From an uncultured Gammaproteobacteria bacterium (GTDB taxonomy: Bacteria > Patescibacteriota > Microgenomatia > 2-02-FULL-39-11), in contig CAYGXQ010000001.1 of the NCBI GenBank assembly GCA_964354025.1, positions 70,567 to 134,566 on the forward strand: 64,000 nt of DNA. Direction: 5' to 3'. The translations under genes were made by a program, and so were the position numbers. Numbering within the stretch: the first letter of the stretch is position 1; every line of letters begins with the position of its first letter. This document shows, in pieces, positions 2,219 to 56,568 of this stretch. Below the pieces are notes generated by a model. The model was not told the origin of the DNA. It did no database searches and worked only from the letters and a program-made list of their open reading frames with translations.

Positions 2219-3310
2219 CTATCCAACTTCAACTTCCAAGTCCGGACGGGCCTGAATTTCTCTCCAGAGTACCGGGTGGTTGTGGAAATAAGCGTAACTG
2301 GCGATATAGCTGGCGTTGTCAGTGCAAAGGGAAGGAGGAGGAATATATAAATCAATTTTTAATTTTAAATTTTCAATTTTTAATTTGAACTTTTCCGTTA
2401 ACCGTTTATTAGCAGCGACACCGCCACCGAGGAGAATGGATTTCACCCGATATTTTTCGGCGGCTTTCAGGGTTTTATCCACGAGGACGTCAGTAATCGC
2501 TTCCTGGATTTCGTAAGATAGTTGTTGAATGGTGTAAGAATTAAGTTTCTTAAGTGCCTTAAGTTTATTTACTTCTCTTAAAACCGCGGTCTTCAGTCCG
2601 GAAAAGGAAAAATCAAAATTATCTTCATGCATCATCGGTCGGGGAAGTTTCACAATGTCATGCTGAACTCGTCCTGATTTAATCGGGATAAATTCAGGAT
2701 GATCATTACAGAACTTTGCAGCAGCATCTGCAATAGCTGGTCCACCGGGGTATCCAAGTCCCAAAAGTCTGGCAGTTTTGTCAAAAGTTTCTCCGGCCGC
2801 ATCATCGCGGGTCCCGCCGAGCCATATAATATCCCGGTGATTTTTCATCAAAAATAATTCCGTGTGTCCGCCGGAGACAACCAAAGCGATGGCTGGAAAA
2901 GAAGGAGGTTTTTCGACATCAAGCCAGTTGGCGTAAAGATGGGCCAGGACATGGTTGACCGGAATAATCGGTTTACCGGTAAGATAAACGATGGTTTTGG
3001 CTGTTTCTACGCCGACTAAAAGCGAACCGATTAAACCCGGTCCAATGGTTACTGCGATGGCGTCGATTTTTTCAATTGTTGCATTGTTGCATTGCTTGCC
3101 CTGAGCGGAGTCGAAGGGTTTCATTGTTTCATTTATTACGGGTATCATACACTTCACCTGTTCCCGGGCGGCCACTTCCGGAATAATCCCGCCGGTTTTC
3201 GTATGCAGGTCTTTTGAAGAGGAAACCACGTTGGAGAGAATTTTGACACCGTCCTCCACCAAAGCCGCAGCGGTTTCGTCACATGATGTTTCAATGCCTA
3301 AAATAATCAT
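2219..3310 (-). CDS. tsaD: tRNA N6-adenosine threonylcarbamoyltransferase TsaD (Kae1/YgjD family)
   Basis: MIILGIETSCDETAAAL..., AIAVTIGPGLIGSLLVG, VSGGHTELF. Start taken at internal Met (ATG 3308-3310) rather than the long ORF start that overlaps the upstream gene. Contains an in-frame repeat-derived insertion PFDSAQGKQ. Confidence 0.85.
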   Translation of the reverse strand: MIILGIETSCDETAAALVEDGVKILSNVVSSSKDLHTKTGGIIPEVAAREQVKCMIPVINETMKPFDSAQGKQCNNATIEKIDAIAVTIGPGLIGSLLVGVETAKTIVYLTGKPIIPVNHVLAHLYANWLDVEKPPSFPAIALVVSGGHTELFLMKNHRDIIWLGGTRDDAAGETFDKTARLLGLGYPGGPAIADAAAKFCNDHPEFIPIKSGRVQHDIVKLPRPMMHEDNFDFSFSGLKTAVLREVNKLKALKKLNSYTIQQLSYEIQEAITDVLVDKTLKAAEKYRVKSILLGGGVAANKRLTEKFKLKIENLKLKIDLYIPPPSLCTDNASYIASYAYFHNHPVLWREIQARPDLEVEVG

Positions 3311-3315
3311 AGGAA

Positions 3316-3771
3316 TTAATCTATTCTTAAAATTTTTGCCAGTTTTGAAGAGGAATAATTTTGGAAAAAAGGAATGATCCGCATTATTGCTCCGCAACTT
3401 TCCGCCTGGTTTTTCTTTCGCTCAAGGAGCGGATCATTTCCGGTAGCGGCGATGACAGCCGGTTTGATTTGCTGAATAATCTTGTCATATTCCGGATCGT
3501 TTTTCAGATACGGTAACAAGATTACATAATCAACAATGGTAAGTGAGGTGAGCATTTCCGCTCTTTCTTTTTGGTTGAAAATCGGTCGGGAAATTCCTTT
3601 CAGTATTTTTGCCTTCTTGTCACTTTCCAAAAGAATCACCAGTCTTTCGCCCCTTTTTTTGGCAGCCCGGAAGAAACGCAGATGGCCGGGATGGAGAAGA
3701 TCAAAACAGCCGCCGGCTAAAACAATATTATTTATTTTTTTTACCTCTTGTAAAGAAATGATTTTTGCCAT
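3316..3771 (-). CDS. RfaE/HldE domain II-like nucleotidyltransferase (cytidylyltransferase fold, HxGH motif)
   Basis: GGCFDLLHPGH and KILKGISRPI resemble the ADP-heptose synthase adenylyltransferase domain (CFDILHAGH ... KRLKGDSRPV). Confidence 0.6.
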   Translation of the reverse strand: MAKIISLQEVKKINNIVLAGGCFDLLHPGHLRFFRAAKKRGERLVILLESDKKAKILKGISRPIFNQKERAEMLTSLTIVDYVILLPYLKNDPEYDKIIQQIKPAVIAATGNDPLLERKKNQAESCGAIMRIIPFFQNYSSSKLAKILRID

Positions 3772-8597: not shown

Positions 8598-9572
8598 ATG
8601 CCGCGACCACTTGAAAAAGCGATCATGAAAACTCTCATTTATGCTGATCTTTTTGATTATCCATTAACTAAGGAGGAGATTTGGAGAAGGTTGATAAAAT
8701 TACAAATTACAAATGATAAATTACAAATTAAATTAAAAAAATTAATAAATTCAATATTATTTGGGAAAAAAGAGAAATATTATTATTTGGTAGGGAGAGA
8801 GGAAATTATTCAATTGCGGAAAAGAAGGGAGAAATATTCGGAAGAAAAAGTAAAGATAGCCAGGCGGATTGCTAAACTTCTTAAATTTATTCCATTTGTT
8901 AAATTGGTCGGCTTGACCGGAGCGGTGGCCGCAGGAAACGCCGATGAAGATGATGATATCGATTTACTGATTATTACTTCGGGGAATTTGTTGTGGACGA
9001 CGCGTCTATTAGTTACTTTATCAGTTGATCTGATGGGACTTCGGCGAAGACCTGATGATAAAAAAGTGAAAAACAAAATCTGTTTAAATATGTTTATAGA
9101 TGAAAATTATTTGGCAATTGGTAAAGATGAAAGGGATTTGTTTACCGCTTACGAAATCACTCAGATGAAACCGCTGTTTGAAAAAAACCAGATATACAAG
9201 AGATTTATAAAAGCAAATGATTGGGTGGGAAAATATTTACCTAACGCTTTCAATGAACTAAGTACTTGTCCCATTGTCATCCCGACCGACCACAAGCGTG
9301 TAAACCACTTGTGGGAGTGGAGGGATCTTCCATATTCCGGAAGTTGGAAGATTCCTCCCCGATGGCCATCGGGACTCGGAATGACACTTTTTCGCTTGCT
9401 GGAAATACCAAGCAAGCGACTACAGCTTATATATATGAAAAAACGGCGCACGACCGAGAAAATCAAAACCGGAGTAATCCGATTTCACCCGAGGGATATC
9501 AGAAAGGAAATAATGAAACGGTTTGAGACGAGAGCCAAATCCCCCCTTGACAAGGTTTTTTTCACTGAGTAA
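8598..9572 (+). CDS. nucleotidyltransferase-domain protein (Pol beta superfamily) carrying two in-frame repeat insertions
   Basis: GLTGAVAAGNADEDDDIDLLII fits the GS-x(n)-DxD NTase motif. Residues KLQITNDKLQIKLKK are coded by the ttacaaattacaaat repeat (8697-8753). Residues CPIVIPTDHKRVNHLWEWRDL...LGMT are coded by a family-1 structured repeat (9276-9386). Confidence 0.55.
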   Translation: MPRPLEKAIMKTLIYADLFDYPLTKEEIWRRLIKLQITNDKLQIKLKKLINSILFGKKEKYYYLVGREEIIQLRKRREKYSEEKVKIARRIAKLLKFIPFVKLVGLTGAVAAGNADEDDDIDLLIITSGNLLWTTRLLVTLSVDLMGLRRRPDDKKVKNKICLNMFIDENYLAIGKDERDLFTAYEITQMKPLFEKNQIYKRFIKANDWVGKYLPNAFNELSTCPIVIPTDHKRVNHLWEWRDLPYSGSWKIPPRWPSGLGMTLFRLLEIPSKRLQLIYMKKRRTTEKIKTGVIRFHPRDIRKEIMKRFETRAKSPLDKVFFTE

Positions 9573-16587: not shown

Positions 16588-16590
16588 CGG

Positions 16591-16652
16591 GATCCCTCGA
16601 TCCGCCAGCTGGCGGACTCGGGATGACAGAAAAGATTTAAATCTTTTCTGTC
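16591..16652. repeat. composite structured repeat: 16-bp perfect palindrome plus family-1 end module plus hairpin
   Basis: gatccctcga, then tccgccagctggcgga (16601-16616; the identical 16-mer is at 9601-9616), then ctcgggatgacag, then hairpin gacagaaaagatttaaatcttttctgtc. Confidence 0.6.
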
Positions 16653-18121
16653 ACTTTATATTCTAACCTTTTCCCCAAAAGAAGTCTGGTGTGCGCATCA
16701 AGGGCGGGAAGAGAGGAAAAAAGGAAAGAGACAATCGGCAGTAGAATCCACTGGAAAAGAAGAAGCGGAGTAGTGGAAATAGAAGTGTGAGCCGGCCTTT
16801 TCGGCCGGGATTTGGCATCCAGAATAATCAAGACCAAAAGAAAAGTAGTAGTAATCGTCAAAATCAAACCGGACATTTTCGGTAAATTATGCCCGAGGGT
16901 AGTTCTTGAAAAAACCGGATTAACCAAAGCCGGAATAGAAGCTCCCAACGTCAGGATGAAAAAAGAAGTCGGCCAAAAAAGATGGGTTTCGACAACGTAT
17001 AAGACGCGGTACAGCTTCGGCAGGATGGGGATATGTGAAGAGGTGAAAAACTTCTTCAAAGCATAAGGGACATCGGTAATTCCCCAAGCCCAGCGTTTTT
17101 CCTGTTCATAACGGGATTTGAAAGCATTTAAAAGAGTATTGCTGTTGACGGCATCGCGGGAAATCGTCAGATAAATAGGCAGCGTTTTTACTTTTTCACC
17201 TAAGGTAAAGAAAGCCTGAAGGAAAATATGCCAGTCTTCCGGAATGATATCCGTATCCCAATAACCGATTTTCTCAAGCATTTGTAAAGATAGAGAATAA
17301 GTGGAAATTTGGATTAAACTGCCAGGACGGGCAAGAGAAGCCAGGCGGGTAATGCTGGAAATGGTTGCCTGGATTCTGATGGGAAGAGGCACTTCCCAAA
17401 AATTGCTGTAAAGAAGAACCGGTGCCCAGTAGAAATGGTAGTAACGCTCTCCGTCAGTCAAAAACATAAAAGTCAGGTAGGAAAAATATTTTGCCGGGAA
17501 AAGAGAGTCGGCATCGCTTGAGGTGACGGTCACAAAATCCGGATTAATCTTTTTCTTTCTGATCACTTGGCTTAAATATTTGGCCGCCCAGGCGGCATTA
17601 CTGGCTTTGCCGGCAATTTCCCCGATTTTGGCCTGGTGGTATGTTGCCTCGATTAAGCCGAATTTACCTTTGAACTCGGCGATTAAAGCCTTTGCCCGTT
17701 CATGGGCCTGTTCACCCTCCCTTTCTTCCATGGCCAAAATGATGAAAATACGTTTGACGGGAAAATCCTGATTTACCAGAAATTCAAGGGTTTTTTTGAC
17801 TTTTTCCGTTGTTTCCTTGTAATTAGTGATGATGACAGCGTGATATATTTGGGCGTAATCGGGTAATTTTTTCGACTTTACAGCCCAATCAACCTGCGAA
17901 AGTTTGCGGAGCTTAAGGTAGGAAACGGTTGACATGATGGTCATGGATAGGGACTTGTAAAAGAAATAAACATCAAAACTGAGGATGAAATAGGCAACGA
18001 GGGCCGGGTGAAAAACAGAAAGCCAGACAGGTAAAGTGATGATCAGCCAGGTAGTGACCGGAATGATCATTTCAAAAAAACGCTCGATGAGATGCGGGTA
18101 ACGGTTAAAAAAGGCACGCAT
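16637..18121 (-). CDS. family 2 glycosyltransferase, cellulose/chitin/hyaluronan-synthase-like processive type
   Basis: DADS...QEKRWAWG (QxxRW) motif, cytoplasmic GT-A domain between N- and C-terminal TM bundles. Confidence 0.7.
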   Translation of the reverse strand: MRAFFNRYPHLIERFFEMIIPVTTWLIITLPVWLSVFHPALVAYFILSFDVYFFYKSLSMTIMSTVSYLKLRKLSQVDWAVKSKKLPDYAQIYHAVIITNYKETTEKVKKTLEFLVNQDFPVKRIFIILAMEEREGEQAHERAKALIAEFKGKFGLIEATYHQAKIGEIAGKASNAAWAAKYLSQVIRKKKINPDFVTVTSSDADSLFPAKYFSYLTFMFLTDGERYYHFYWAPVLLYSNFWEVPLPIRIQATISSITRLASLARPGSLIQISTYSLSLQMLEKIGYWDTDIIPEDWHIFLQAFFTLGEKVKTLPIYLTISRDAVNSNTLLNAFKSRYEQEKRWAWGITDVPYALKKFFTSSHIPILPKLYRVLYVVETHLFWPTSFFILTLGASIPALVNPVFSRTTLGHNLPKMSGLILTITTTFLLVLIILDAKSRPKRPAHTSISTTPLLLFQWILLPIVSFLFSSLPALDAHTRLLLGKRLEYKVTEKI

Positions 18122-18169
18122 ATTTTACGGGATTAATCCTTCGGCTACGCTCAGGATGAATCTATTGTA

Positions 18170-18990: not shown

Positions 18991-19060
18991 TGTCATTGCG
19001 AGCAAAGCGAAGCAATCCCATCCGAGATTGCCACGGCTACTTCGTAGCCTCGCAATGACA
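18991..19060. repeat. family-1 structured repeat with 12-bp perfect terminal inverted repeats
   Basis: tgtcattgcgag ... ctcgcaatgaca. The internal segment cgaagcgaagcaatcccatccgagattgc occurs inverted in the copy at 32483-32557. Confidence 0.7.
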
Positions 19061-20861: not shown

Positions 20862-20902
20862 AATTTCATTTTACTTTTTTTGGTGGTAGAATGGAACGAT
20901 GT

Positions 20903-20950
20903 AGTAGCAGACTTTAGTCTGCGTAAGCGCGAACTGAAGTTCGCTATTCC
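20903..20950. repeat. family-2 double-hairpin repeat
   Basis: tagcagacTTTAgtctgcg then agcgcgaacTGAAgttcgct, bounded by aatagc / gctattcc. Related copies at 33490, 38404 and 56392. Confidence 0.65.
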
Positions 20951-21968: not shown

Positions 21969-22056
21969 TGTCATCCCGACCGATCCCGACTTAGTCGGGA
22001 GAGTGGAGGGATCTTCCCAGAGGCGGAAGATTCCTCGACTTCGCTCGGAATGACAG
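21969..22056. repeat. family-1 structured repeat (full-length copy)
   Basis: tgtcatcccgac ... ggagggatcttccc ... ggaagattcctcgacttcgctcggaatgacag. Ends are inverted repeats with nested hairpins. Confidence 0.7.
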
Positions 22057-22066
22057 AGTTAGAAAT

Positions 22067-25063
22067 ATGGATCAAAAGAAGTTAAATAAGGAACAGCTTG
22101 AGGCGATCCGTCACTGGAAAGGCCCGCTTCTGGTGATTGCCGGCGCGGGGACGGGTAAAACAACGGTTATAACCGAGCGGATCAAATGGCTGATTGCCGA
22201 AGGCCTGGCCAAACCAGCCGAAATTCTGGCTTTGACTTTTACCGATAAAGCGGCTCGGGAAATGGAAGAACGGGTTGACCGGGCGCTTCCTTACGGTTAT
22301 ACCCAAATGTGGATTACCACTTTTCATTCATTTGGGGAGCGGGTTTTACGGCAGGAAGCGATCCAGATAGGTTTGAATCCGGGATACCGGCTCATGGCTG
22401 AGGCGGAGAGTATCATTTTTTTCCGCAAAAACCTCTTTAAATTTAACCTGAATTATTTCCGGCCAATGGGAAATCCGAACAAGTTTATTTCCGGTATGCT
22501 GCAGCATTTTACCAGGTTTAAAGATGAAGACATATCACCTAAAGAATATTTTAATTGGGCGAAATTAAACAATGAAACAACCCGCCAGCCGGCGAGGCAG
22601 GTGAAACAATTGAACAATGAGGAAAAAACTATTGAGAGTGAAAAATATATGGAACTGTCTGATGCTTTTCAAAAGTATGAAGAACTGAAAGTCAAAGAAG
22701 GTTTGATGGATTTTTCCGACCTGATAACTAACACTCTAAATCTTTTCCGGTTAAGGAAAAATATTTTGAAAAATTATCAGGAGCAGTTTAAGTATGTCTT
22801 GATTGATGAATTCCAGGACACAAATTTTGCCCAAAATGAACTGGCGGTTCTTCTGGCCGGAAACAGAAAAAACATAACGGTCGTCGGGGACGATGATCAG
22901 GCGATTTACCGATGGCGCGGCGCGGCTGTTTCCAATATTATCCAATTCCGGCAAAAATTCCCGGAGGCAAAGCCGGTGGTTTTGACGAAAAATTACCGTT
23001 CCACCACTGAAATTCTTGACCGGTCATATGACCTTATCCAAAACAACAATCCAGACCGGTTGGAAGTAAAAGAGAAAATTAATAAAAAACTAGAAAGCCA
23101 AAGAGGGATAAAAGGAGAAAAAATAGAATTGATTTATGAAAAGAGAGTGGAAGATGAAGCGGAAAAAGTAGCTAAACAAATTACAAATTATAAATTACAA
23201 ATTACAAATGACGAAGGGAAAGAATTATACAGTTGGAAAGATTTTGCCATTTTGGTTCGGGCCAACAGTCAGGCAGAACCGTTTGCCAGGGCACTATCCC
23301 GGGCCGGTATCCCTCACCAGTTTTTAGGACCGGGCATGCTTTTTAGGCAGTCTGAAGTCAAAGACCTGATCGCTTACCTTAAATTACTCGACGACTTCAC
23401 TGATTCGGTGGCCTTTTTCCGGGTTGTCACAATGCCGGTTTTTGGGATAAACACCCGGGATATTTATGCCGTCAATAATTTTGCCAAAAGAGTCGGGCTT
23501 TCCTTATTTGAAGCAGTTGAGGTGGTGGTGGCGTTTTTCTTAGGCGATGAAGGACATTGGAGCCGGATGAAAAATTACCAGAATTACCTGCCGTATACAG
23601 GCGAAACTACCAAAGAAAAACTGACCAAGATAATGAAAATGATCAACCGGCATTTGGATTTGGCCAGAAAAGAAACCGCCGGTCAGGTTCTCTACTACTT
23701 TCTGGAAGACAGCGGCATTTTGAAAGAACTGGTTGAGTACAAGACGGTCAAAGAGGAAAAGACCGCCTTAAATATCTCGAAATTTTTCGACAAGCTGAAG
23801 ACTTTTGAGACGGAACACGAAGAAGCAAATGTAGCGGCGGTGGTTGATTGGATTGAAATGGCGATGGAACTGGGTGAAAGTCCCCTGGCGGCGGATACTG
23901 ACTGGTCACAAAATGACGCGGTAAATATCCTGACAGTCCATTCGGCTAAAGGATTGGAGTTTCCGGTGGTCTTTTTAGTCAATCTGGTTAACCAGCGTTT
24001 TCCGACAGTTGAGCGGCATGAACAAATTCCCATCCCTGATGAGCTGGTGAAGGAGATATTGCCGGAAGGGGATTATCATCTGGAGGAGGAAAGACGGCTG
24101 TTTTACGTAGGTATGACCAGGGCCCGCGACCGGCTGATTTTGACCGCGGCCAATTTCTACGGAGAGGGCAAAAGAGAAAGGAAGATCTCGCAGTTTGTGA
24201 TGGAAACGTTGGGAGAGAAGAACATCAATAATTTAACAATTCAACCCTTCGACTTCGCTCAGGGTAAGCAATTGACTCTTTTAGAATGGAAAAAAACTGA
24301 AGAATTACCGGCCAAAACTATTAAACAACCCATCGAATATCTTTCTTATTCCCAAATTGAGAGTTTCACGACCTGTCCGCTGCAGTATAAATACCGCTAT
24401 ATCATCAGAATTCCGGCCCCTCCTTCGGCCGCCGGCTCTTTCGGAACATCCATCCATCTGACTTTGCAGAAATTTTACGAGCGGGTTAAAAGAGGCGAGC
24501 GGCCGCAAAAAGAGGATTTATTGCAGATATTGGATGAGGTCTGGCTGCCGGTCGGTTACGGTTCGAAACAATATGAAGAGAAAATGAAGACCAGAGGCCG
24601 CGACATGCTTCAGGCTTTTTTTGAGAAATTTTACGATCCCGACAAAAAGCCAAAAAGCCTGGAGCAGATTTTTAAGATAAAGCTGACACCGACTCTTAAA
24701 ATCGGCGGCAAAATCGACCGGGTGGATGAGACGCCTGACGGAAAGTTGGAAATTATCGATTACAAAACCGGCAAACGTCCCACCGATAAGGCCATCGCCG
24801 AAAACCTGCAGATGACGGTTTACGCGCTGGCCGCCTGCGACTCCGGTATTTACAACAGACGGCCGGAAGAAGTGGTTCTTTCTTTTTATTTTTTTGACGC
24901 CCGGGAGAAAGTAACTTCGACTAGGACAAAAGAACAGTTGGAAGAAGCCAAGAAAAAACTCCTGGAAAAAGCCCAAGATATTGCATCAAGCGATTTCTCT
25001 CCAAAAGTGGGCAAATGGTGCGATTTTTGCGATTTCCGCCTCATCTGTGAAGCCTGGCAATAA
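22067..25063 (+). CDS. UvrD/PcrA-family helicase fused to a C-terminal PD-(D/E)xK (RecB/Cas4-type) nuclease domain with Cys cluster
   Basis: Walker A GAGTGKTT, DEFQDT, VTLTKNYRS, C-terminal YSQIESFTTCPLQYKYRY...IDYKTGK...CDFCDFRLICEAW. Two in-frame repeat insertions at 23175-23212 and 24243-24264. Confidence 0.85.
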   Translation: MDQKKLNKEQLEAIRHWKGPLLVIAGAGTGKTTVITERIKWLIAEGLAKPAEILALTFTDKAAREMEERVDRALPYGYTQMWITTFHSFGERVLRQEAIQIGLNPGYRLMAEAESIIFFRKNLFKFNLNYFRPMGNPNKFISGMLQHFTRFKDEDISPKEYFNWAKLNNETTRQPARQVKQLNNEEKTIESEKYMELSDAFQKYEELKVKEGLMDFSDLITNTLNLFRLRKNILKNYQEQFKYVLIDEFQDTNFAQNELAVLLAGNRKNITVVGDDDQAIYRWRGAAVSNIIQFRQKFPEAKPVVLTKNYRSTTEILDRSYDLIQNNNPDRLEVKEKINKKLESQRGIKGEKIELIYEKRVEDEAEKVAKQITNYKLQITNDEGKELYSWKDFAILVRANSQAEPFARALSRAGIPHQFLGPGMLFRQSEVKDLIAYLKLLDDFTDSVAFFRVVTMPVFGINTRDIYAVNNFAKRVGLSLFEAVEVVVAFFLGDEGHWSRMKNYQNYLPYTGETTKEKLTKIMKMINRHLDLARKETAGQVLYYFLEDSGILKELVEYKTVKEEKTALNISKFFDKLKTFETEHEEANVAAVVDWIEMAMELGESPLAADTDWSQNDAVNILTVHSAKGLEFPVVFLVNLVNQRFPTVERHEQIPIPDELVKEILPEGDYHLEEERRLFYVGMTRARDRLILTAANFYGEGKRERKISQFVMETLGEKNINNLTIQPFDFAQGKQLTLLEWKKTEELPAKTIKQPIEYLSYSQIESFTTCPLQYKYRYIIRIPAPPSAAGSFGTSIHLTLQKFYERVKRGERPQKEDLLQILDEVWLPVGYGSKQYEEKMKTRGRDMLQAFFEKFYDPDKKPKSLEQIFKIKLTPTLKIGGKIDRVDETPDGKLEIIDYKTGKRPTDKAIAENLQMTVYALAACDSGIYNRRPEEVVLSFYFFDAREKVTSTRTKEQLEEAKKKLLEKAQDIASSDFSPKVGKWCDFCDFRLICEAWQ

Positions 25064-27191: not shown

Positions 27192-28511
27192 ATGGATAAA
27201 AAGAAGATTTTGATTACCGCAGTTATAGTATTAATGGCAATTATCGCCATCGTTGCTATTTTTCTCTCCAAAAAAAATCAGCCGGGACAACCAGTCAGCT
27301 GCAATCTGCAAAATTGTCCTTCCGGCTGCTGCGCGGATGACAAATGCCAGACCCAGGGATCAATTTTTGCCGGCTACTTATGTTTGGGTGCCAATAACTG
27401 GCAGACGCCTGGTCGGCAAGTGGTGACTGGTGCGCCAAAAGAAGTCGCGGCAGAAGTGAAAAAGAATGCCGAAACGGATAAAATCTCTCCCAATCCTGCT
27501 TCGCAAAGAATAGAAATGGCCAAAAAAACGCTTGACTGGTTAAATATGCAGAAAGATGAAAAGGGCTTGTATTCCCTTTACCAAATCGTCCGTGCGAACG
27601 GTGAAGTGGTACCTTATATTACCGACAGCCGGGAAGTGATTGACGTCGTCCTGGCAAGATATGCATACTGGAAAAAGACAAAAGACACAAAGACACTGGA
27701 TCTGTTAAAACAGGATCTGGATGTACTAGGTGATGAGAAAAAACTGCCGCAGTTGATGCCTGAATTTTGGCATTGCAAGCTATTTTACGAAATCTGGAAT
27801 GATAAGCTTATGCCTGGGGATTTGAAAGATAAAGCCAAAGCCAGTTGCGCAAGAAGTATGACCTCCGGTTATCCTGATGTGGACCTTAAATCGATTTTAT
27901 CGGATACAATAACGGTGACTCCTTTTCCGGAAAAATCAATTCAGGAACTTGAGTCAGCCTTAAATAAACCGGAGAAGAATATTACTTTATCACCGCAGGA
28001 GGAGGAAGAACTCCAGCAGAAATATCCGAAATATGCCGCTTACGTTTCCGATTTCCTTAATAAATACCAATGGGAAAAAAAGAACCAGGATCTGGAAGCG
28101 GCCAAAACGTTTTTCAGCTACGCTTTAGACGCCTACAAGAGAGCGGAAGAGGCGGCAGTAATACCGCAAAAAGAATGCCTGTTGGGGATTGCTTCGCTTG
28201 ATTTTTTCAAAACGACTGCCGATGACAAATACCGCTCGTTTGCGCAAAAATTATGGGAAAAAATCTCAATCTCACCAAAAGGATCGCTTTTCTCACAAGC
28301 TACCTGCGCTATTTTTACCAATGAGATAAATACAATCACCCCTGATAAAAAATACGGTGATTTCCTGAAAAACTTGACTGATGAGATTATAAAAAATAAC
28401 CATGAAATAAATTCCGGCGCTTTCTTTTATAAAAGCAATGGAAGTATTATCAAAGAGATCAGGGATAATTGTCTCTTGGTGAAGGTTTTATCGGATTCTG
28501 ATAGTGAGTAG
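27192..28511 (+). CDS. TM-anchored extracytoplasmic protein, cassette component A2, with extra Cys-rich N-terminal segment
   Basis: Paralogous to A1 (see motifs there) plus CNLQNCPSGCCADDKCQTQG near the membrane anchor. Confidence 0.6.
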   Translation: MDKKKILITAVIVLMAIIAIVAIFLSKKNQPGQPVSCNLQNCPSGCCADDKCQTQGSIFAGYLCLGANNWQTPGRQVVTGAPKEVAAEVKKNAETDKISPNPASQRIEMAKKTLDWLNMQKDEKGLYSLYQIVRANGEVVPYITDSREVIDVVLARYAYWKKTKDTKTLDLLKQDLDVLGDEKKLPQLMPEFWHCKLFYEIWNDKLMPGDLKDKAKASCARSMTSGYPDVDLKSILSDTITVTPFPEKSIQELESALNKPEKNITLSPQEEEELQQKYPKYAAYVSDFLNKYQWEKKNQDLEAAKTFFSYALDAYKRAEEAAVIPQKECLLGIASLDFFKTTADDKYRSFAQKLWEKISISPKGSLFSQATCAIFTNEINTITPDKKYGDFLKNLTDEIIKNNHEINSGAFFYKSNGSIIKEIRDNCLLVKVLSDSDSE

Positions 28512-30858
28512 TATGAAAAGATTTTTTTATACAATATTTCTTGCCATTATCCTTTTGGGGATTTTTTATTCCTTTAAAAATAGCGCATATGCTGTAGATT
28601 GTTCGATTCTCAGCTCAAATCCTGCTTGCGGTAAATGTGTTATAGATCCATGGTCTGGGAGTGGTGCTTGTATGAAACAGTGTAATCCTGGTGCGATTAC
28701 GTGTTCCGGTAAGGAAGATCTGAATTCCTGCTGGTGGAGATGTAATGCAGCTGAAGGGGGATGTGATAATCCCTACCAATGCTGTTATCCGCCGAGTCCC
28801 ACTCCGACTAATTCACCACCCTCCTGTAACAGCCTGACTGTCCAGCCGGTTACCGTGATGCCTGGAGAGTCGATTACCCTAAAAGCAAACGTCGGCGAAT
28901 TGAACGGCTCGGTTACGAAAGTGGATTTTTATTACGGATTAGTATCGGAAATAGACGGAGGGGCGGCGGTCAATCCTCCAGGCGGTAACTGGCATCCTTT
29001 AGGCAGTGTGTCATCCAGTCAACCGACAATCCCCTTTGCTCCTTTGGTCACGCCGAATGTTAAAACAGGTAAAAGTTGTGACCAGATTTGTCAGGGATAT
29101 CAGGGCAGGTCCTGTTTGTCAGTTGGTACTGATACCGGGGGAACAAACGGGAGCGTGACGAAATTTAATAGTACTGGGAGTGAAGACGGCAGTTGTGATT
29201 CACAAACGGGCGGATGGGCAAGAGAGAAATGCAATGTAGCGATGAATGCTCATGGACAAATGCCTTGCGACTGGACAAATTGCCGCTGTTCGGATTGGCC
29301 GACTTTAACTACATTTACGGATGTTTCTTGGACCGGAACTTTTCCGGGAACAGGAGGAGCCTATTATTTCATCGCCAATGTCTTTGACGCTCAGGGCCTG
29401 TTTTGTTCCGGCAATCCTAAAAAACCGGCTGACGTAAAAGGATGTTCAGCCTGTATGTTGCAAACAACCGTGGTGACGCCATCACCGACTCCCAGTGAGT
29501 CTCCGACGCCTTCAGCAACACCTACATCTACCCCTACTTCTACTCCTACCCCGACACCTCTTGGATGCGGCAATCCCTGCAGCCCGGACAATAACGAATG
29601 TCCCGAAGAATGTCCATTTTGTCCGGTAGATAATTCCTTTTGCGTCGGTCCAAGTTCCACGCCCACTCCCACCCAAGTTCCTTGTAACGGCCCCTGTACT
29701 AACAGCAATGAATGTGATATAAACTGTCCTCTTTGTTCAACTGATCATACCTGTAGGGTACCTTGTGGTGATCTGTGCACCAACAGCAACGAATGCGATC
29801 TGTCCTGTCCGATTTGTACGGCTGATAACAAATGTTTGGCAGCCAGTCCGACTCCCACTAAAGTCCCCTGTACCCAACCATGTACCAATAGCCTAGAATG
29901 CGATATCAACTGTCCTCTTTGTTCAACTGATCATACCTGTAGGGTACCTTGTGGTGATCTGTGCACCAACAGCAACGAATGCGATCTGTCCTGTCCGATT
30001 TGTACGGCTGATAACAAATGTTTGGCAGCCAGTCCGACACCGACAGCTACACCGATTCCTCCGACAGCTACACCGACAGCGACTGTCACTCCGACACCGG
30101 AGCCATACTGCCTTTGCGATAGTATGGAATATACAGGATCTCCGGTACCGGGTGGGACAATGAGTTTCACTACCTGGGGTAGGATACCGGATTATGCCCA
30201 CAATAATTCAGGCATCCAGAGTATGATTTATCGGGTTTGGAACGGAAGACCGGAATCGCAATCTGTGCCTCCGGATGCAGCCGGACCCGTCACTGTACCA
30301 GCCCAAGGTCCGGTAACCGTCGGTGCTGATTACCGGTATTCGACGACTTGGAATTGGCAAATTCCGAGTACCGTGCCGACTTCCGGTTATGTCGATTATT
30401 ATTTCAACGCGGAAATCAAGTGTGTCAGACCAAGATCGACAGCGGATAGCGGCAGTAATCTGGTTCAGGCAAACACGGCGGTGCTGGGTACAACCGAGGA
30501 AAAAAGTCCCGGCTTTTTTGCCTCCATTCTTCGTTTCTTCGGTTCTCTTTTAGGAATTTCTCCATCTGTGGTTACTCCTTCACCGCTAGTACCTACTCCT
30601 ACCTCCTCTGCCCGGCTTGTTCCGCTGGCCGCCGAAGCACTTTCGCCTACACCTACCCAGGTCATGCTTCCTCCTTCTCCCACAATGGGAATGGGAGGGT
30701 ATTGCGCCAGTACTGTTCTTGCACCATCAGGAGTCCATAGCGATCAACTAGGCACTTTTACTCCCAATTGCGCCTGTCCTACCCCAGCAATTATCAAAAC
30801 ATGTACCTGGACAGTCTTAAGAATATATTACGGTGATGATTGTGTGAAGACACCGTAA
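28504..30858 (+). CDS. large secreted Cys-rich modular surface protein, cassette component B2
   Basis: Signal peptide; N-terminal Cys-rich domain homologous to B1; Pro/Thr linkers; five CxxxxECxxxCPxC modules; C-terminal domain homologous to B1. Confidence 0.6.
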   Translation: MSSMKRFFYTIFLAIILLGIFYSFKNSAYAVDCSILSSNPACGKCVIDPWSGSGACMKQCNPGAITCSGKEDLNSCWWRCNAAEGGCDNPYQCCYPPSPTPTNSPPSCNSLTVQPVTVMPGESITLKANVGELNGSVTKVDFYYGLVSEIDGGAAVNPPGGNWHPLGSVSSSQPTIPFAPLVTPNVKTGKSCDQICQGYQGRSCLSVGTDTGGTNGSVTKFNSTGSEDGSCDSQTGGWAREKCNVAMNAHGQMPCDWTNCRCSDWPTLTTFTDVSWTGTFPGTGGAYYFIANVFDAQGLFCSGNPKKPADVKGCSACMLQTTVVTPSPTPSESPTPSATPTSTPTSTPTPTPLGCGNPCSPDNNECPEECPFCPVDNSFCVGPSSTPTPTQVPCNGPCTNSNECDINCPLCSTDHTCRVPCGDLCTNSNECDLSCPICTADNKCLAASPTPTKVPCTQPCTNSLECDINCPLCSTDHTCRVPCGDLCTNSNECDLSCPICTADNKCLAASPTPTATPIPPTATPTATVTPTPEPYCLCDSMEYTGSPVPGGTMSFTTWGRIPDYAHNNSGIQSMIYRVWNGRPESQSVPPDAAGPVTVPAQGPVTVGADYRYSTTWNWQIPSTVPTSGYVDYYFNAEIKCVRPRSTADSGSNLVQANTAVLGTTEEKSPGFFASILRFFGSLLGISPSVVTPSPLVPTPTSSARLVPLAAEALSPTPTQVMLPPSPTMGMGGYCASTVLAPSGVHSDQLGTFTPNCACPTPAIIKTCTWTVLRIYYGDDCVKTP
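29677..30048 (+). repeat. tandem direct duplication of a 186-bp unit (62 aa, two Cys modules) inside B2
   Basis: 29722-29852 is 100% identical to 29908-30038 (131 bp); the upstream parts of the units are about 80% identical. Confidence 0.85.
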
Positions 30859-31760: not shown

Positions 31761-32582
31761 ATGATTACCTCCGGTAATTTAATCGGCGCTTTTTTGGCAG
31801 GATTGACGTCCTTTTTTGCCCCGTGTCTGCTGCCGCTTTTTCCCTCTTACTTTTCCGCCGTCTCCGGCTTTACTTTTGCCCAGTTGTACGGACTGGATTT
31901 CGGCAAAATCAGGTTACGGGTCTTTGTCTCCAGTCTTTTTTTCTCGGCCGGATTTGCGATCGTTTTCACGGCTTTGGGAGCCACCGGTTCCCTTGTCGGA
32001 CAACTTCTGGAGAAGTACCTGCCGTATCTTTTGAGGCTAAGCGGGATATTTTTGATACTATTGGGTCTTGTACAACTGGGAATAATCAAAATTCCCTCTT
32101 TTGAATTTGACTATGCTTGGAAAATGCAGAAAAAAATGGCCGGTCTCGGGTTCTTAACCTCTTTGGTAACCGGGATTGCCGCCGCGCTGTCTTGGATTCC
32201 CTGTATCGGGCCGCTTTTGTCTCCGATCCTTTTGCTTTCTGCAGAAAGCGAGACGGTGTTTTCCGGCAGTTTACTTTTATTTATTTTTTCCCTGGGACTG
32301 ACGGTACCGTTTTTGGCCGGCGGATTATTTTTCCCGGCCGTAGTCAATCTTCTTCAGGGTCATAGGCAGCTGTTTCACCGGATTTCACAGCTGGCGGGAA
32401 TATTTATTATCATCCTCGGGATATTATTACTCGCAGATAAATATCAGTTATTGATAAAATTATTTGAAGGGATAGTTTTATCTGTCATTGCGAGTCCCGA
32501 TGTCACATCGGGACGCGGCAATCTCGGATGGGATTGCTTCGCTTCGCTCACAATGACATATAAACATAAATTCATTATATAA
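31761..32582 (+). CDS. ccdA: CcdA/DsbD-family transmembrane thiol-disulfide electron transporter
   Basis: Paired Cys motifs FAPCLLPL and WIPCIGPLL in TM helices. The last ~30 codons (VIASPDVTSGRGNLGWDCFASLTMT...) are read through a family-1 repeat and are probably not native. Confidence 0.75.
   Translation: MITSGNLIGAFLAGLTSFFAPCLLPLFPSYFSAVSGFTFAQLYGLDFGKIRLRVFVSSLFFSAGFAIVFTALGATGSLVGQLLEKYLPYLLRLSGIFLILLGLVQLGIIKIPSFEFDYAWKMQKKMAGLGFLTSLVTGIAAALSWIPCIGPLLSPILLLSAESETVFSGSLLLFIFSLGLTVPFLAGGLFFPAVVNLLQGHRQLFHRISQLAGIFIIILGILLLADKYQLLIKLFEGIVLSVIASPDVTSGRGNLGWDCFASLTMTYKHKFII
32483..32557. repeat. family-1 structured repeat with near-perfect 12-bp TIRs
   Basis: tgtcattgcgag ... ctcacaatgaca. 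Central module is the reverse complement of the central module of the 18991 copy. Confidence 0.7.
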
Positions 32583-33489: not shown

Positions 33490-33534
33490 GGAATAGCGCA
33501 CTTTAGTGCGCGCGCAGACTAAAGTCTGCTATTA
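33490..33534. repeat. family-2 double-hairpin repeat
   Basis: aatagcgcacTTTAgtgcgc gcgcagacTAAAgtctgctatt. Confidence 0.65.
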
Positions 33535-38371: not shown

Positions 38372-38403
38372 GATATAATGGATATCTATAATAGCATATT
38401 GTA

Positions 38404-38453
38404 ATAGCAGACTTTAGTCTGCGTAAAACGCGCAATAAATTGCGCTAATCCAA
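38404..38453. repeat. family-2 double-hairpin repeat
   Basis: taatagcagacTTTAgtctgcg taaaa cgcgcaaTAAattgcgc taatcc. Confidence 0.65.
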
Positions 38454-40448: not shown

Positions 40449-40654
40449 ATCTTCCTTTTAGACAATTTATCAAAATATTGCTTTAAGTTCAATAGAAGGA
40501 TCTTTCGCTTCTTCAGATCGGAAAAAATATATGATTTTATTGCTTAATTGTTCTATTGTTAAATTGTAAATTTTTCGTCTTCCCTCAATCCGTAAATAAT
40601 ATTTAGTCTCGTTAGGTTGTCTTACGTCTGTGTAAGTTATATACTAATACTATT

Positions 40655-40978
40655 GTGAACGTAATTAACAGTGAAACAGATCAAATAATCGAAAGAATAA
40701 TTCAACACTGCCAACCGGAAAAAATTATTCTTTTTGGTTCAGTCGCCAGAAATGAGATTAAAGAGAACTCTGACATCGACCTTTTAATCATCAAGGAAAG
40801 TGATAAAAAGAGGCCGTTCAGAGTAAAAGAAATATTCAAAGCTTTAAGAGGCATGGTGAGAAATTATCCTTTAGATGCAATTGTATATACGCCTGAAGAA
40901 TTGGATAAACGTATTCTGATAGGAGATTACTTTATAAAAAGAATATTGAGTGAGGGAAAGACTGTCTATGGCGACTGA
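40655..40978 (+). CDS. minimal nucleotidyltransferase (MNT) antitoxin-type protein
   Basis: ILFGSVARNEIKENSDIDLLII (GS...DxD). Confidence 0.75.
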   Translation: MNVINSETDQIIERIIQHCQPEKIILFGSVARNEIKENSDIDLLIIKESDKKRPFRVKEIFKALRGMVRNYPLDAIVYTPEELDKRILIGDYFIKRILSEGKTVYGD

Positions 40979-41366: not shown

Positions 41367-41519
41367 TCTTATTTTTTCGCCTCTTCAGACCGGAAATAAT
41401 TCATGAGTTCATGGTTCAATTGTTACATTGTTAAATTGCTAAATTGTTAATTATTCGTCTTCCCTCAATCCTTGAATAGTATTTTTCGAAGACAGATGGC
41501 CGATGGCGGATGACAGATT

Positions 41520-41625
41520 TTTCCGTCCTCTGTATTCTGTCTTCCGATTTCTGTCCTCCATTTTCTGCTTTCAGTCTTCCGTATTCTGTCTTCTGACTTC
41601 CGTCCTCCAACTTCCGTCTTCGATA
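41520..41625. repeat. pyrimidine-rich tandem decamer array (consensus about TTCYGTCYTCC); complement strand GGA-rich
   Basis: About 9-10 imperfect units read directly in the sequence: ttctgtcctcc / attttctgct / ttcagtcttcc / gtattctgtcttc / tgacttccgtcctcc / aacttccgtcttcg. Confidence 0.6.
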
Positions 41626-49970: not shown

Positions 49971-50026
49971 GAAGATCCCTCAACGAAGTTTATCCTGAGC
50001 GAAGTCGAAGGGTTCGGGATGACAGA
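49971..50026. repeat. family-1 structured repeat, half copy
   Basis: ggaagatccctcaacgaagtttatcctgagcgaagtcgaagggttcgggatgacag; contains the same 22-mer found in frame in tsaD and in the helicase. Confidence 0.65.
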
Positions 50027-56391: not shown

Positions 56392-56564
56392 ATAGCGGAC
56401 TTTAGTCCGCGTCCTTCGGCTTCACTCAGGACAAGTTCAGCGCGCACTTAAAGTGCGCTATTCCAGAAACTGTGGCAAGCCAAATACGTGAATTCAAGGT
56501 GGAAGATCCCTCGACTTCTCCTTCGTCTCGCTTCGTTCGCTCAGGATTCGCTCGGAATGACGAC
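56392..56564. repeat. family-2 double-hairpin repeat fused to a family-1 half copy
   Basis: taatagcggacTTTAgtccgcg...agcgcgcacTTAAagtgcgctattcc (56392-56466), then ggaagatccctcgacttctcc...gctcggaatgacg (56501-56564). Confidence 0.6.
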
Positions 56565-56568
56565 TGCT

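What the first reader, a model, noticed from the sequence alone, without database searches (positions are those of the whole stretch)
3079..3130. In-frame insertion of a mobile 22-nt repeat motif in the essential gene tsaD
tsaD carries ccctgagcggagtcgaagggtt at 3099-3120, translated on the minus strand as PFDSAQGKQ. Relative to canonical TsaD this is an extra loop just before the conserved DIDAIAVTxGPGL segment. The same 22-mer occurs in frame in the helicase-nuclease gene and intergenically inside a family-1 repeat. This resembles Rickettsia palindromic elements, which insert in frame into ORFs.
Basis: partly seen in the sequence, partly recalled or inferred. Interest (0 to 1): 0.7.

Follow-up and report, generated by a model that had tools for sequence, protein, structure and literature searches.

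The report
Pan-bacterial hairpin repeat inserted in tsaD
A 24-base piece of a short hairpin repeat found in almost every bacterial phylum, where it forms the inverted ends of tiny cassettes that encode a GIY-YIG nuclease, sits in frame in a floppy surface loop of the essential enzyme TsaD of this candidate-phyla-radiation bacterium, and sister species have that site empty or filled by a different repeat.

Summary
The 22-mer lies at 3099-3120, with two near-copies at 24243-24264 and 49993-50014 (none expected by chance).

Aligned with close orthologs, the extra DNA in tsaD is exactly 24 nt (3095-3118; PFDSAQGK). It has no target duplication and sits between CAATGNNN octamer repeats. The nearest ortholog (85% aa) has the site empty. 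Another carries an 18-nt palindrome at the same junction, and three carry the same or a sister core. Filled orthologs are not each other's closest relatives.

The motif is not lineage-specific. The 19-mer core occurs in most bacterial phyla, with unrelated flanks, and sits in frame in real genes in several reading frames.

In Bacteroidota and Sphingomonas the motif forms ~25-nt inverted terminal repeats (TGTCA-stem-CTGAGCGRAGTCGAAG-stem) around ~100-aa GIY-YIG (UPF0213-like) nuclease genes:
- 71 of 80 such loci carry a family hairpin beside the gene.
- The enrichment over distal flanks is about 49-fold.
- Nuclease subfamilies carry their own repeat variants.

The tsaD insert is therefore best read as a solo arm of this family, tolerated in a low-confidence loop.

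Mobilisation by the nuclease is inferred. No such gene lies in the window, and none was shown for this lineage. I found no Rfam family or paper describing the motif.

The parts
3095..3118 (-). 24-nt in-frame insert in tsaD. The coding strand reads CCCTTCGACTCCGCTCAGGGCAAG = PFDSAQGK (TsaD residues 65-72). It is one arm (R-type: stem CCCT/AGGG plus 12-nt loop TCGACTCCGCTC) of the pan-bacterial hairpin repeat.
   Evidence: Empty site in L002 and L208. Same junction filled in L206, L207, L209 and L001. Motif statistics.
3075..3099 (-). Octamer tandem array (CAATGCAA CAATGCAA CAATTGAA on the coding strand), encoding QCNNATIE directly downstream of the insert. This is the landing-pad repeat.
   Evidence: TRF period 8, 3 copies, 94% matches. 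The same array type is present in empty-site orthologs and in intergenic arrays at 40546-40572 and 41414-41450.
3118..3133 (-). Two further 8-nt units (AATGAAAC AATGAAAC on the coding strand), encoding NETMK directly upstream of the insert.
   Evidence: TRF period 8, 2 copies, 100%.
2219..3310 (-). tsaD (363 aa from MIILGIETS), the host gene.
   Evidence: Pfam PF00814, E 2e-78. PDB TsaD 8iey, E 1e-72. AlphaFold mean pLDDT 91.9, with the insert at the end of helix 44-68 and a low-confidence coil at 69-76.
24245..24268 (+). Second genic copy, CCCTTCGACTTCGCTCAGGGTAAG = PFDFAQGK. It lies in the linker between the UvrD helicase and PD-(D/E)XK nuclease domains of ORF 22067-25063, flanked by CAATTCAA and CAATTGAC, in the same frame and orientation as in tsaD.
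   Evidence: The linker is hypervariable in homologs and no clean empty site was found.
49974..50025 (+). Intergenic composite GATCCC...TCCTGAGCGAAGTCGAAGGGTT...CGGGATGACAG. It is an L-type copy of the motif nested inside an outer ATCCC/GGGAT hairpin that carries the TGACA tag.
21969..22055 (+). Gene-less (MITE-like) member of the family. It has a TGTCA-tagged L arm with a nested insert in its loop, a spacer, and the R arm ATTCC-TCGACTTCGCTC-GGAAT-GACA. It lies just upstream of the helicase gene.
   Evidence: The termini match the GIY-YIG cassette ends.
16590..16656 (+). R-type hairpin ATCCC-TCGA[tccgccagctggcgga]CTC-GGGAT-GACAG with a nested insert in the loop, followed by an inverted CTGTCAC.
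   Evidence: (I4).
18135..18160 (+). Intergenic solo hairpin ATCCT-TCGGCTACGCTC-AGGAT.
56405..56565 (+). Intergenic cluster: hairpin GTCCT-TCGGCTTCACTC-AGGAC (56410-56432) and a degenerate composite ending ...GCTCGGAATGAC (56498-56563).
18991..19035 (+). Sister-family unit TGTCA-TTGC-GAGCAAAGCGAA-GCAA-TCC..., with an inverted partner at 32514-32558 (93% complementary). The two overlap the ends of the TatD-like and DsbD-like ORFs.
   Evidence: (I1).

Best explanation
The 24 nt at 3095-3118 are a solo copy of one arm of a short hairpin repeat that occurs throughout Bacteria. One unit has an outer tag TGTCA, a 4-5-bp stem that covaries, and a conserved 12-nt loop GAGCGRAGYCGA (TCGRCTYCGCTC on the other strand).

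Full-length members of the family are cassettes of about 430 bp. Two such units in inverted orientation (~25-nt terminal inverted repeats) enclose a gene for a ~100-aa, catalytic-domain-only GIY-YIG nuclease (PF01541, UPF0213-like). Gene-less arm-spacer-arm units and single arms are far more numerous.

In this Gottesmanbacteria-like genome one arm was copied, without target duplication, into the boundary between two CAATGNNN octamer repeats. Those repeats encode a disordered loop of TsaD between helix alpha1 and the strand IDAIAVT.

The copy survives for two reasons. The net length is a multiple of three, and the motif is free of stop codons in five of six frames. The same junction has been filled repeatedly in related species by this core, by the sister CTTCGACAARCTCAG core, or by an unrelated 18-nt palindrome.

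Shown: the insertion polymorphism, the identity of the motif, its pan-bacterial spread, and its tight and oriented association with GIY-YIG genes, including protein-subfamily/repeat co-variation.

Inferred: that a GIY-YIG nuclease acting in trans (cutting at the hairpin, followed by copying during repair) moves the arms, by analogy with REP/RAYT and with homing endonucleases. Also inferred: that the insert is neutral for TsaD.
For: **Insertion**
- L002 (85% aa to the window's TsaD) reads ...ACAATGAAA|CAATGTTC...; the window reads ...ACAATGAAA|CCCTTCGACTCCGCTCAGGGCAAG|CAATGCAA...
- L001 (90% nt identity to L002) has CCTGCCTGCGCAGGCAGG at the same junction.
- L206, L207 and L209 are filled at the same junction and L208 is empty.
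- Each filled ortholog has a closer empty relative.
- Window vs L206: the core differs at 1 of 24 nt, while the flanking codons differ at about 25%.

**Spread**
- The hits cover Acidobacteriota, Bacteroidota, Alpha- and Gammaproteobacteria, Chloroflexota, Cyanobacteria, Spirochaetes, Verrucomicrobiota, Nitrospirae and Patescibacteria, including isolates.
- Flanks are unrelated.
- The motif lies in frame in real genes in four different frames: a GspE-type ATPase, ComM, DNA ligase, a Mur-type ligase and agmatine deiminase.

**GIY-YIG link**
- Arms flank the gene in Sphingomonas (L124) and in Sphingobacteriales (L072).
- 33 of 120 homologs read through into motif-derived peptides, against 2 of 240 controls.
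- 71 of 80 metagenomic GIY-YIG loci have a family hairpin next to the gene.
- The nearest upstream unit is L-type in 44 of 51 loci, and the nearest downstream unit is R-type in 50 of 61.
- Density is 6.3 per kb near the gene against 0.13 per kb beyond 400 nt.
- Similarity between cassettes stops at TGTCA and TGACA.
- Other nuclease subfamilies carry their own variants: CTGAGGCACTCGAAG, GTGAGCCTGTCGAAC, CTGAGCTTGTCGAAG.
- In L182 a tandem array of arm-spacer-arm units has the cassette inside the last unit.

**Other support**
- Stems covary: 277 of 298 units have at least 4 of 5 pairs, against about 160 expected.
- The window holds a complete gene-less TGTCA...TGACA unit at 21969-22055.
- In the AlphaFold model, residues 69-76 are low-confidence coil within an otherwise confident model.
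Against: - No GIY-YIG ORF lies in the 64-kb window or in any Patescibacteria locus I could read. A nuclease in this genome is therefore assumed, not shown.
- Only 3 of about 125 motif-selected genome loci and 1 of 99 viral loci hold a GIY-YIG gene within the fetched stretch.
- The tsaD and helicase copies lack the TGACA tag. They end GGGYAAG-CAAT instead.
- A single unit is a weak hairpin by nearest-neighbour energies (-1.6 to -2.9 kcal/mol, z about 0).
- The association does not tell whether the nuclease moves the repeats or merely homes into them.
- More distant GIY-YIG genes in Legionella and Subdoligranulum have no such flanks.
- Repeated precise loss from one ancient insertion, rather than repeated gain, is not excluded.
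Confidence: 0.6

Rival explanations
1. The hairpin units are spread by ordinary host processes: template switching at stalled forks, or ectopic gene conversion between repeat arrays such as the CAATNNNN octamers. On this view the small GIY-YIG genes are secondary parasites, free-standing homing endonucleases whose target is the arm-spacer-arm unit. The tsaD insert would then owe nothing to the nuclease.
For: - In L182 the cassette sits between the spacer and the R arm of one unit in an array of otherwise intact units, as expected for homing into a repeated target.
- Both genic copies in the window, and all filled tsaD sites, lie exactly at octamer-repeat boundaries. This could supply microhomology.
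- A chemically unrelated 18-nt perfect palindrome occupies the same junction in L001, which argues for a structure- or site-driven process rather than one enzyme-specific end.
- No nuclease gene lies in the window.
- Nested insertions occur at loop tips (L072; window 16590-16629 and 21969-22010).
Against: - Targets of homing enzymes are not expected to stay identical over 19 nt across phyla, whereas ends needed for mobilisation are.
- Repeat variant and nuclease subfamily co-vary, and the TGTCA/TGACA tags bound the cassette like transposon ends.
- Template switching alone does not explain why the same non-palindromic 12-nt loop is kept everywhere.
Confidence: 0.25
2. One reading: a lineage-specific mobile palindromic element of the Rickettsia RPE kind that inserts in frame into ORFs.
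For: In-frame presence in two genes plus intergenic copies in one window. Filled and empty orthologs.
Against: - The unit is 24 nt, with a 4-bp stem and a weak fold.
- The identical core occurs in most bacterial phyla and on IMG/VR viral contigs.
- It is part of the inverted repeats of GIY-YIG cassettes.
- RPEs are 100-150 bp and confined to Rickettsia (my own knowledge, Ogata et al. 2000).
Confidence: 0.08
3. PFDSAQGK is an ancestral or selected peptide motif of TsaD in this clade, and its resemblance to other copies is coincidental or due to selection on the protein.
For: P0005 (PFDYAQGK) and P0010 (PFASTQGK) carry similar peptides at the same place.
Against: - The nearest orthologs lack it, and the filled ones are not a clade.
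- Conservation is at the nucleotide level and exceeds that of neighbouring codons.
- The same DNA is read in other frames in other proteins.
- Copies are also intergenic.
- The loop is hypervariable, holds many other repeat-derived peptides, and is modelled with low confidence.
Confidence: 0.03
4. Assembly or binning artefact: a chimeric join through a repeat.
For: Repeats break and mis-join metagenome assemblies. Many GIY-YIG contigs are very short.
Against: - The reading frame of an essential gene is preserved.
- An identical sequence appears in an independent Logan assembly.
- The same junction is filled in four other assemblies from other projects.
Confidence: 0.01

Closest known systems
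REP / REPIN elements with their RAYT (REP-associated tyrosine transposase)
   Same: Short (20-40 nt) imperfect palindromes with a conserved end tag. Very many gene-less copies occur as singlets, inverted doublets and tandem clusters. A small nuclease gene is flanked by two units in inverted orientation. Repeat variant and protein subfamily go together (PMC3116915, PMC2817692, PMC3733652 for REP/RAYT; here).
   Different: The associated protein is a GIY-YIG nuclease of about 100 aa, not an HUH/Y1 transposase. The tag is TGTCA, not GTAG or CGTC. The repeat core is nearly identical across phyla, whereas REPs differ between species. Copies occur inside coding sequences in frame. The nuclease gene can be multi-copy, as suggested by the many short contigs.
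Rickettsia palindromic elements (RPE)
   Same: Repeat DNA inserted in frame into protein-coding genes, including essential ones, at positions that are surface loops. Both filled and empty orthologs exist.
   Different: RPEs are 100-150 bp long palindromes restricted to Rickettsia (my own knowledge, Ogata et al. 2000 Science). Here the unit is 24 nt, a single weak hairpin, pan-bacterial, and linked to a nuclease gene.
Small dispersed repeats (SDR) and STRR heptamer arrays of cyanobacteria (Elhai et al. 2008, Genome Res 18:1484; cited in PMC3116915, the paper itself not readable here)
   Same: Very small (about 21-27 nt) repeats that appear inserted into genes, into other repeats (nesting) and next to short tandem heptamer or octamer arrays, without obvious target duplications. 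This comparison is from my own recollection of the paper.
   Different: SDRs were described as cyanobacterial families with no associated enzyme. Whether any SDR is the motif found here could not be checked. The motif does occur in cyanobacteria (L030, L081; Nostoc, Planktothrix and Pseudanabaena plasmids).
MITEs (e.g. Correia/NEMIS, ERIC)
   Same: Non-autonomous derivatives with terminal inverted repeats, far outnumbering the autonomous element. They are occasionally co-translated with host genes (PMC2229807, PMC3184786).
   Different: No DDE transposase and no target-site duplication seen. The tsaD insert is one arm only, without inverted repeats of its own.
Free-standing GIY-YIG homing endonuclease genes (I-TevI-like, Seg proteins)
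   Same: A GIY-YIG nuclease gene as the only cargo of a small selfish cassette, inserted within or next to its presumed recognition sequence (PMC1564403 for the superfamily).
   Different: These proteins lack the C-terminal DNA-binding domains of I-TevI-type enzymes. By sequence they are closest to UPF0213 proteins of unknown function (1zg2, 1ywl). Their presumed target is a dispersed repeat rather than a unique gene.

Membership tests
Rickettsia palindromic elements (RPE) | Length about 100-150 bp with a long, stable palindromic fold | tested here: not met
   The insert is 24 nt. The fold is a 4-bp stem, -1.6 kcal/mol, z +0.67.
Rickettsia palindromic elements (RPE) | In-frame insertion into ORFs, with empty orthologous sites | tested here: met
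Rickettsia palindromic elements (RPE) | Restricted to one lineage | tested here: not met
   The identical 19-mer occurs in most bacterial phyla and on viral contigs.
REP/REPIN-RAYT systems | Short imperfect palindromes in high copy number, as singlets and inverted pairs | tested here: met
   Copy number per complete genome was not measured.
REP/REPIN-RAYT systems | Associated gene is an HUH/Y1 transposase (RAYT) flanked by inverted REPs | tested here: not met
   Flanking in inverted orientation is met, but the gene is a GIY-YIG nuclease, PF01541.
REP/REPIN-RAYT systems | GTAG or CGTC tetranucleotide tag at one end | tested here: not met
   The tag is (T)GTCA in 135 of 298 units.
MITE | Terminal inverted repeats and a target-site duplication | tested here: not met
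   The tsaD insert has neither (at most 1 nt of junction ambiguity). The gene-less unit at 21969-22055 has inverted ends but no evident duplication. No consistent duplication was seen around full cassettes.
Hairpin-repeat / GIY-YIG cassette family (defined here) | Conserved 12-nt loop GAGCGRAGYCGA (or its complement) closed by a 4-5-bp covarying stem | tested here: met
   The tsaD copy is CCCT-TCGACTCCGCTC-AGGG. Family covariation.
Hairpin-repeat / GIY-YIG cassette family (defined here) | Outer TGTCA/TGACA tag | tested here: not met
   Absent from the tsaD and helicase copies (GGGYAAG-CAAT). Present in window units at 21969-22055, 16590-16629 and 49974-50025.
Hairpin-repeat / GIY-YIG cassette family (defined here) | A cognate GIY-YIG nuclease gene in the same genome | tested here: inconclusive
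   None in the 64-kb window or in about 100 kb of related Patescibacteria loci. The rest of the 139-kb contig and of the genome could not be fetched.
GIY-YIG homing endonuclease cassette | Nuclease cleaves the uninterrupted target, and the cassette is copied in by repair | not testable with these tools
   Only the layout is seen: the cassette lies between the spacer and the R arm of one unit of a tandem array.
TsaD (host gene) | Full-length match to PF00814 with conserved motifs retained around the insert | tested here: met
   The model has pLDDT 91.9.

The most novel reading that the evidence does not exclude
The hairpin motif CTGAGCGRAGTCGAAG and its sister variants, together with the ~100-aa UPF0213-like GIY-YIG nucleases they flank, constitute an undescribed, pan-bacterial class of miniature mobile element. 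It would be a GIY-YIG counterpart of the REPIN/RAYT system. Its arms are small enough, and free enough of stop codons, to colonise coding sequence, so it continually writes 6-8-residue segments into surface loops of proteins, including essential ones such as TsaD in genome-reduced CPR bacteria. It would also explain the widespread repeat-derived peptides (PFDSAQGR, LRLRSGQ, PSTSLRA, LSEVEG, PERSRR, SLSNHE, FDKLR) that litter hypothetical proteins in databases.
Probability: 0.35. Interest if true: 0.85.

Novelty: new variant of a known kind. Interest (0 to 1): 0.7.

Why it matters
- It shows that even an essential, universally conserved enzyme in a minimal genome carries repeat DNA that comes and goes at one nucleotide junction. 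A protein loop is thus shaped by selfish or repair-driven DNA dynamics rather than by selection on the protein.
- It traces a local oddity to a repeat family shared, almost base for base, by most bacterial phyla, and ties that family to a large group of tiny GIY-YIG nucleases whose function is unknown (the UPF0213 structural-genomics targets). If the link is causal, it gives these proteins a role and adds a second REP/RAYT-like system with a different enzyme.
- It has practical value for annotation. Many spurious ORFs, N- and C-terminal extensions, and odd insertions in metagenome proteins come from translating these units.
- It offers testable material in culturable Pedobacter, Flavobacterium and Sphingomonas.

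Tried and rejected
- **Rfam.** No family at gathering thresholds in the whole window. At E<=10 around the intergenic copy and around a perfect two-arm hairpin in L029, only chance miRNA-like hits to a generic hairpin appeared.
- **Literature.** No hits for the DNA strings or sister-variant strings, for motif-derived peptides, or for GIY-YIG together with REP/RAYT/MITE/YhbQ/UPF0213. The 2006 GIY-YIG phylogenomics paper does not mention such repeats. Elhai 2008 could not be read.
- **Other collections.** E. coli genomes have no match. GenBank phages have no match.
- **A super-stable mini-hairpin (GCGAAGC-type) as the reason for universality.** Not supported by nearest-neighbour folding, where z is about 0. 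That model ignores non-canonical pairs.
- **tRNA T-arm / tmRNA or hammerhead resemblance.** I considered this by eye and dropped it. The flanks do not pair as a T-stem, the CUGANGA core is absent, and Rfam gives no hit.
- **Target-site duplication.** ATTG...ATTG around the insert gives a 32-nt period that would break the frame, and empty sites show no duplication.
- **Helicase copy.** The search for an empty-site ortholog found only relatives at 69% identity or less, with a non-alignable linker.
- **Extending the contig to look for a GIY-YIG gene.** This returned only short Logan contigs.
- **GIY-YIG near motif copies in motif-selected loci.** Rare: 3 of about 125 genome loci and 1 of 99 viral loci.
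- **More distant GIY-YIG genes.** Those on Legionella and Subdoligranulum plasmids lack the repeats. The S. paeninsulae copy is a pseudogene without them. Methylobacterium has a further variant in a different arrangement.
Full report
**1. The observation**

The 22-mer CCCTGAGCGGAGTCGAAGGGTT is at 3099-3120 on the + strand. The minus strand there belongs to an ORF (2219-3397, true start MIILGIETS at 3310) that is TsaD. Pfam PF00814 matches at E 2e-78, and PDB TsaD 8iey matches at E 1e-72. The motif is read as PFDSAQGK-Q just before IDAIAVTIGPGL.

Allowing up to 3 mismatches, the window has three copies and shuffles have none. The second copy, at 24243-24264 (-), lies in frame in a 998-aa UvrD-helicase/PD-(D/E)XK-nuclease ORF. 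It reads PFDFAQGK, in the same orientation and frame relative to the motif. The third, at 49993-50014 (+), is intergenic.

The tsaD and helicase copies are alike over 43 nt (86%). This is because both are embedded in 8-nt CAATNNNN tandem repeats (TRF).

**2. It is an insertion, and the site is a hot spot**

Solved TsaD proteins lack about 9 residues here. Among 120 homologs, all Gottesmanbacteria/Microgenomates-like, this loop is hypervariable and full of repeat-like peptides.

DNA of close orthologs settles the boundaries:

| Locus | Protein | Junction |
|---|---|---|
| L002 | P0003, 85% aa identity outside the loop | ...ACAATGAAA\|CAATGTTCCAATGTTACAATG... (empty) |
| window | P0001 | ...ACAATGAAA\|CCCTTCGACTCCGCTCAGGGCAAG\|CAATGCAACAATGCAACAATTG... 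|
| L001 | P0002, 90% nt identity to L002 | perfect 18-nt palindrome CCTGCCTGCGCAGGCAGG at the same junction |
| L206 | P0005 | CCCTTCGACTACGCTCAGGGCAAG |
| L207 | P0010 | decayed copy CCCTTCGCCTCTACCCAGGGCAAG |
| L209 | P0022 | sister core CCCTTCGACAAACTCAGGATAAG (23 nt) |
| L208 | P0016 | empty |

In L209 the reading frame is restored by one fewer octamer. The insert is 24 nt (3095-3118) with no target duplication; only one C is ambiguous at the junction.

The filled orthologs are not each other's nearest relatives. P0001's nearest is the empty P0003. P0010's nearest is the empty P0016. P0022 and P0074 are nearest to the empty P0028.

Between the window and L206 the core differs at 1 of 24 nt, whereas neighbouring codons differ at about a quarter of positions. 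So the junction has been filled, or emptied, several times, or the core is kept uniform by exchange with other copies.

An independent Logan assembly has the identical gene, so this is not an assembly artefact.

AlphaFold gives a confident model (pLDDT 91.9). The insert (residues 65-72) lies at the end of helix 44-68 and in a low-confidence coil at 69-76. This fits a tolerant surface loop. Solvent exposure in the TsaB/D/E complex was not computed.

For the helicase copy, homologs show a non-alignable variable linker and the closest is 69% identical. Insertion there is plausible but not shown.

**3. The motif is not a lineage-specific element**

About 9 are expected by chance for the whole collection.

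The hits lie in Acidobacteriota, Bacteroidota, Alpha- and Gammaproteobacteria, Chloroflexota, Cyanobacteria, Spirochaetes, Verrucomicrobiota, Nitrospirae, Patescibacteria and others. They include isolates such as Treponema saccharophilum, Flavobacterium tyrosinilyticum, Sphingobium algorifonticola and a Pedobacter strain (MR2016-19).

Several features recur across these hits:
- Flanks are unrelated.
- The core often sits at the tip of a local hairpin or terminator.
- It often has an inverted partner nearby.
- It sometimes forms 24- or 27-nt tandem arrays.

The motif also lies in frame in real genes, in four different frames: a GspE-type ATPase (L007), ComM (L013), DNA ligase (L028), a Mur-type ligase (L035) and agmatine deiminase (L044). 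Five of the six frames of the core are open.

It is absent from E. coli and from GenBank phages. It is present on 99 IMG/VR viral contig stretches and on a few plasmids. Rfam has no family for it.

**4. Anatomy of the unit**

Across 298 units the conserved part is a 12-nt loop, GAGCGRAGYCGA. It is closed by a 4-5-bp stem whose sequence varies but stays complementary (CCCT/AGGG, GGCT/AGCC, TCCT/AGGA, TGCT/AGCA, CGCT/AGCG). In 277 of 298 units at least 4 of 5 positions pair, against about 160 when partners are dealt at random. The sample is biased towards CCCT/AGGG by the way it was collected. A GTCA tag precedes 135 units.

By nearest-neighbour energies one unit is a weak hairpin. Covariation, not stability, is therefore the evidence for pairing.

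The window holds further members:
- a complete gene-less TGTCA...TGACA unit at 21969-22055;
- nested units at 16590-16629 and 49974-50025;
- solo hairpins at about 18141 and about 56416;
- a sister family at 18991-19035 and 32514-32558.

**5. Link to GIY-YIG nuclease genes**

A plasmid hit lay under a 'GIY-YIG nuclease family protein'. In Sphingomonas (L124) and in a Sphingobacteriales MAG (L072) the gene is bracketed by the motif in inverted orientation.

Of 120 Bacteroidota homologs (about 102 aa, PF01541), 33 read through into motif-derived peptides such as GFDSAQPD, LSGVEE and ERSRR. Among TsaD and helicase controls the figure is 2 of 240.

I then ran a metagenome scan seeded only with protein patterns, which returned 80 loci:
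- 47 have the exact loop (at most 1 mismatch) within 250 nt of the gene.
- With the general family pattern, 71 of 80 have a hairpin beside the gene.
- The nearest upstream unit is L-type in 44 of 51 loci, and the nearest downstream unit is R-type in 50 of 61.
- Density is 6.3 per kb near the gene against 0.13 per kb beyond 400 nt.

The ends are 5' TGTCAGGCTGAGCGGAGTCGAAGCC ... GGCTTCGACTCCGCTCAGCCTGACA 3'. Similarity between cassettes stops at these ends. The cassette is about 430 bp.

Other subfamilies of the nuclease carry their own variants: GTCATGCTGAGGCACTCGAAGCATG, GTCATGGTGAGCCTGTCGAACCACGG and GTCACCCTGAGCTTGTCGAAGGG. The last is the family of the FDKLR insert in the tsaD of L209.

In L182 and L164, arm-17-nt-spacer-arm units form tandem arrays. 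In L182 the last unit contains the cassette between the spacer and the R arm.

The protein is closest to the UPF0213 structural-genomics proteins 1zg2 and 1ywl. It has no NCBIfam model. More distant GIY-YIG genes in Legionella and Subdoligranulum lack the repeats.

**6. Interpretation**

The tsaD insert is a solo arm of this family. What is shown:
- the insertion polymorphism;
- the family membership of the sequence (loop and stem);
- the pan-bacterial spread;
- the oriented, subfamily-specific association with GIY-YIG genes.

What is inferred:
- that the nuclease mobilises the arms in trans, as in REP/RAYT, or that break repair after its cut copies them;
- that a cognate nuclease exists in this genome, since none lies in the window or in the CPR loci read;
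- that the insert is neutral for TsaD.

The main rival is that host replication or repair spreads the hairpins and the nuclease genes merely home into them. The unrelated palindrome at the same junction in L001, the octamer-boundary position of all the tsaD-site inserts and of the helicase copy, and the L182 layout all fit that rival as well.

**7. Comparison and novelty**

In-frame repeat insertions are known from Rickettsia RPEs. By my recollection they are also known from cyanobacterial SDRs. This case shares the outcome with them but fails the RPE tests of size, fold and lineage.

The system most resembles REP/REPIN-RAYT in layout, but it has a GIY-YIG nuclease, a TGTCA tag and a core conserved across phyla.

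I found no paper or Rfam entry describing the motif or its link to GIY-YIG genes. Absence from the searchable library is not proof of novelty. I rate it a new variant of a known kind, with interest 0.7.

Noticed in passing
window 23176-23209 (inside ORF 22067-25063); also 8697-8740 and 52839-52896: AATTACA heptamer tandem arrays. The one in the helicase gene is read in frame as KQITNYKLQITNDEG. The other two are intergenic. They resemble cyanobacterial STRR heptamers and suggest a second kind of repeat DNA living in coding loops.
   Followed up: partly
window 40503-40604 and 41375-41484: Two direct repeats of about 100 nt (about 80% identical). Each contains a CAATNNNN octamer array and a hairpin-like GGATTGAGGGAAGACGAA core. 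They bracket a nucleotidyltransferase/HEPN (MNT-HEPN toxin-antitoxin-like) gene pair at 40655-41366. A 14-nt-period array follows at 41535-41621.
   Followed up: partly
window 29657-30028: A 186-nt tandem duplication (90% identical) inside the 784-aa ORF 28504-30858, i.e. a 62-residue repeat in the protein.
   Followed up: no
window 20901-20923, 33513-33535, 38401-38423: A 23-nt sequence GTA(A/G)TAGCAGACTTTAGTCTGCG containing the palindrome CGCAGACTAAAGTCTGCG occurs at three sites (96-100% identical), and again next to the hairpin at 56395-56410. It may be a terminator-like or regulatory hairpin family.
   Followed up: no
L001 3193-3210 (tsaD of GCA_022866885.1): A perfect 18-nt palindrome CCTGCCTGCGCAGGCAGG (DNA fold -8.3 kcal/mol, z -3.6) is inserted in frame (PACAGR) at exactly the junction used by the 24-mer in the window. 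Related PAGRQ/PPAGEAG peptides appear in the helicase linker of other CPR genomes (P0257, P0292, P0305).
   Followed up: partly
TsaD homologs P0069, P0112, P0017, P0059, P0062: The same TsaD loop in other Gottesmanbacteria holds up to about 45 extra residues. These are made of tandem 8-residue repeats (SKTVKQLN x3) or of heptamer-array translations (LLTTHYSLLTT, KLLSVICYLL). The loop is a general sink for repeat DNA.
   Followed up: no
L072 1283-1340 and 1345-1402; L021; window 16600-16616 and 21980-22005: Nested insertions sit exactly at the tip of the conserved loop (between GAGCG and GAGTCGA, or TCGA and CTC). The inserted pieces are other short palindromes, which suggests that hairpin tips are preferred entry points.
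   Followed up: partly
L007 (Nitrospirae GspE-type ATPase): About 40 residues of repeat-derived sequence (PPPLVGGGYGGGWGEGKACPFDSAQDRPERSRRSE) are inserted between the two CxxC pairs of the C-terminal zinc-binding region of a type II secretion/pilus ATPase.
   Followed up: no
window 1-64000: No tRNA, rRNA or any other Rfam family reaches its gathering score in 64 kb.
   Followed up: no
L210 (Methylobacterium bullatum): A GIY-YIG gene is flanked by a further variant (CATCCTGAGG...CCTCGAAGGAG, with an insert in the loop) in an R-gene-L-R arrangement. The layout is therefore not uniform across Alphaproteobacteria.
   Followed up: no
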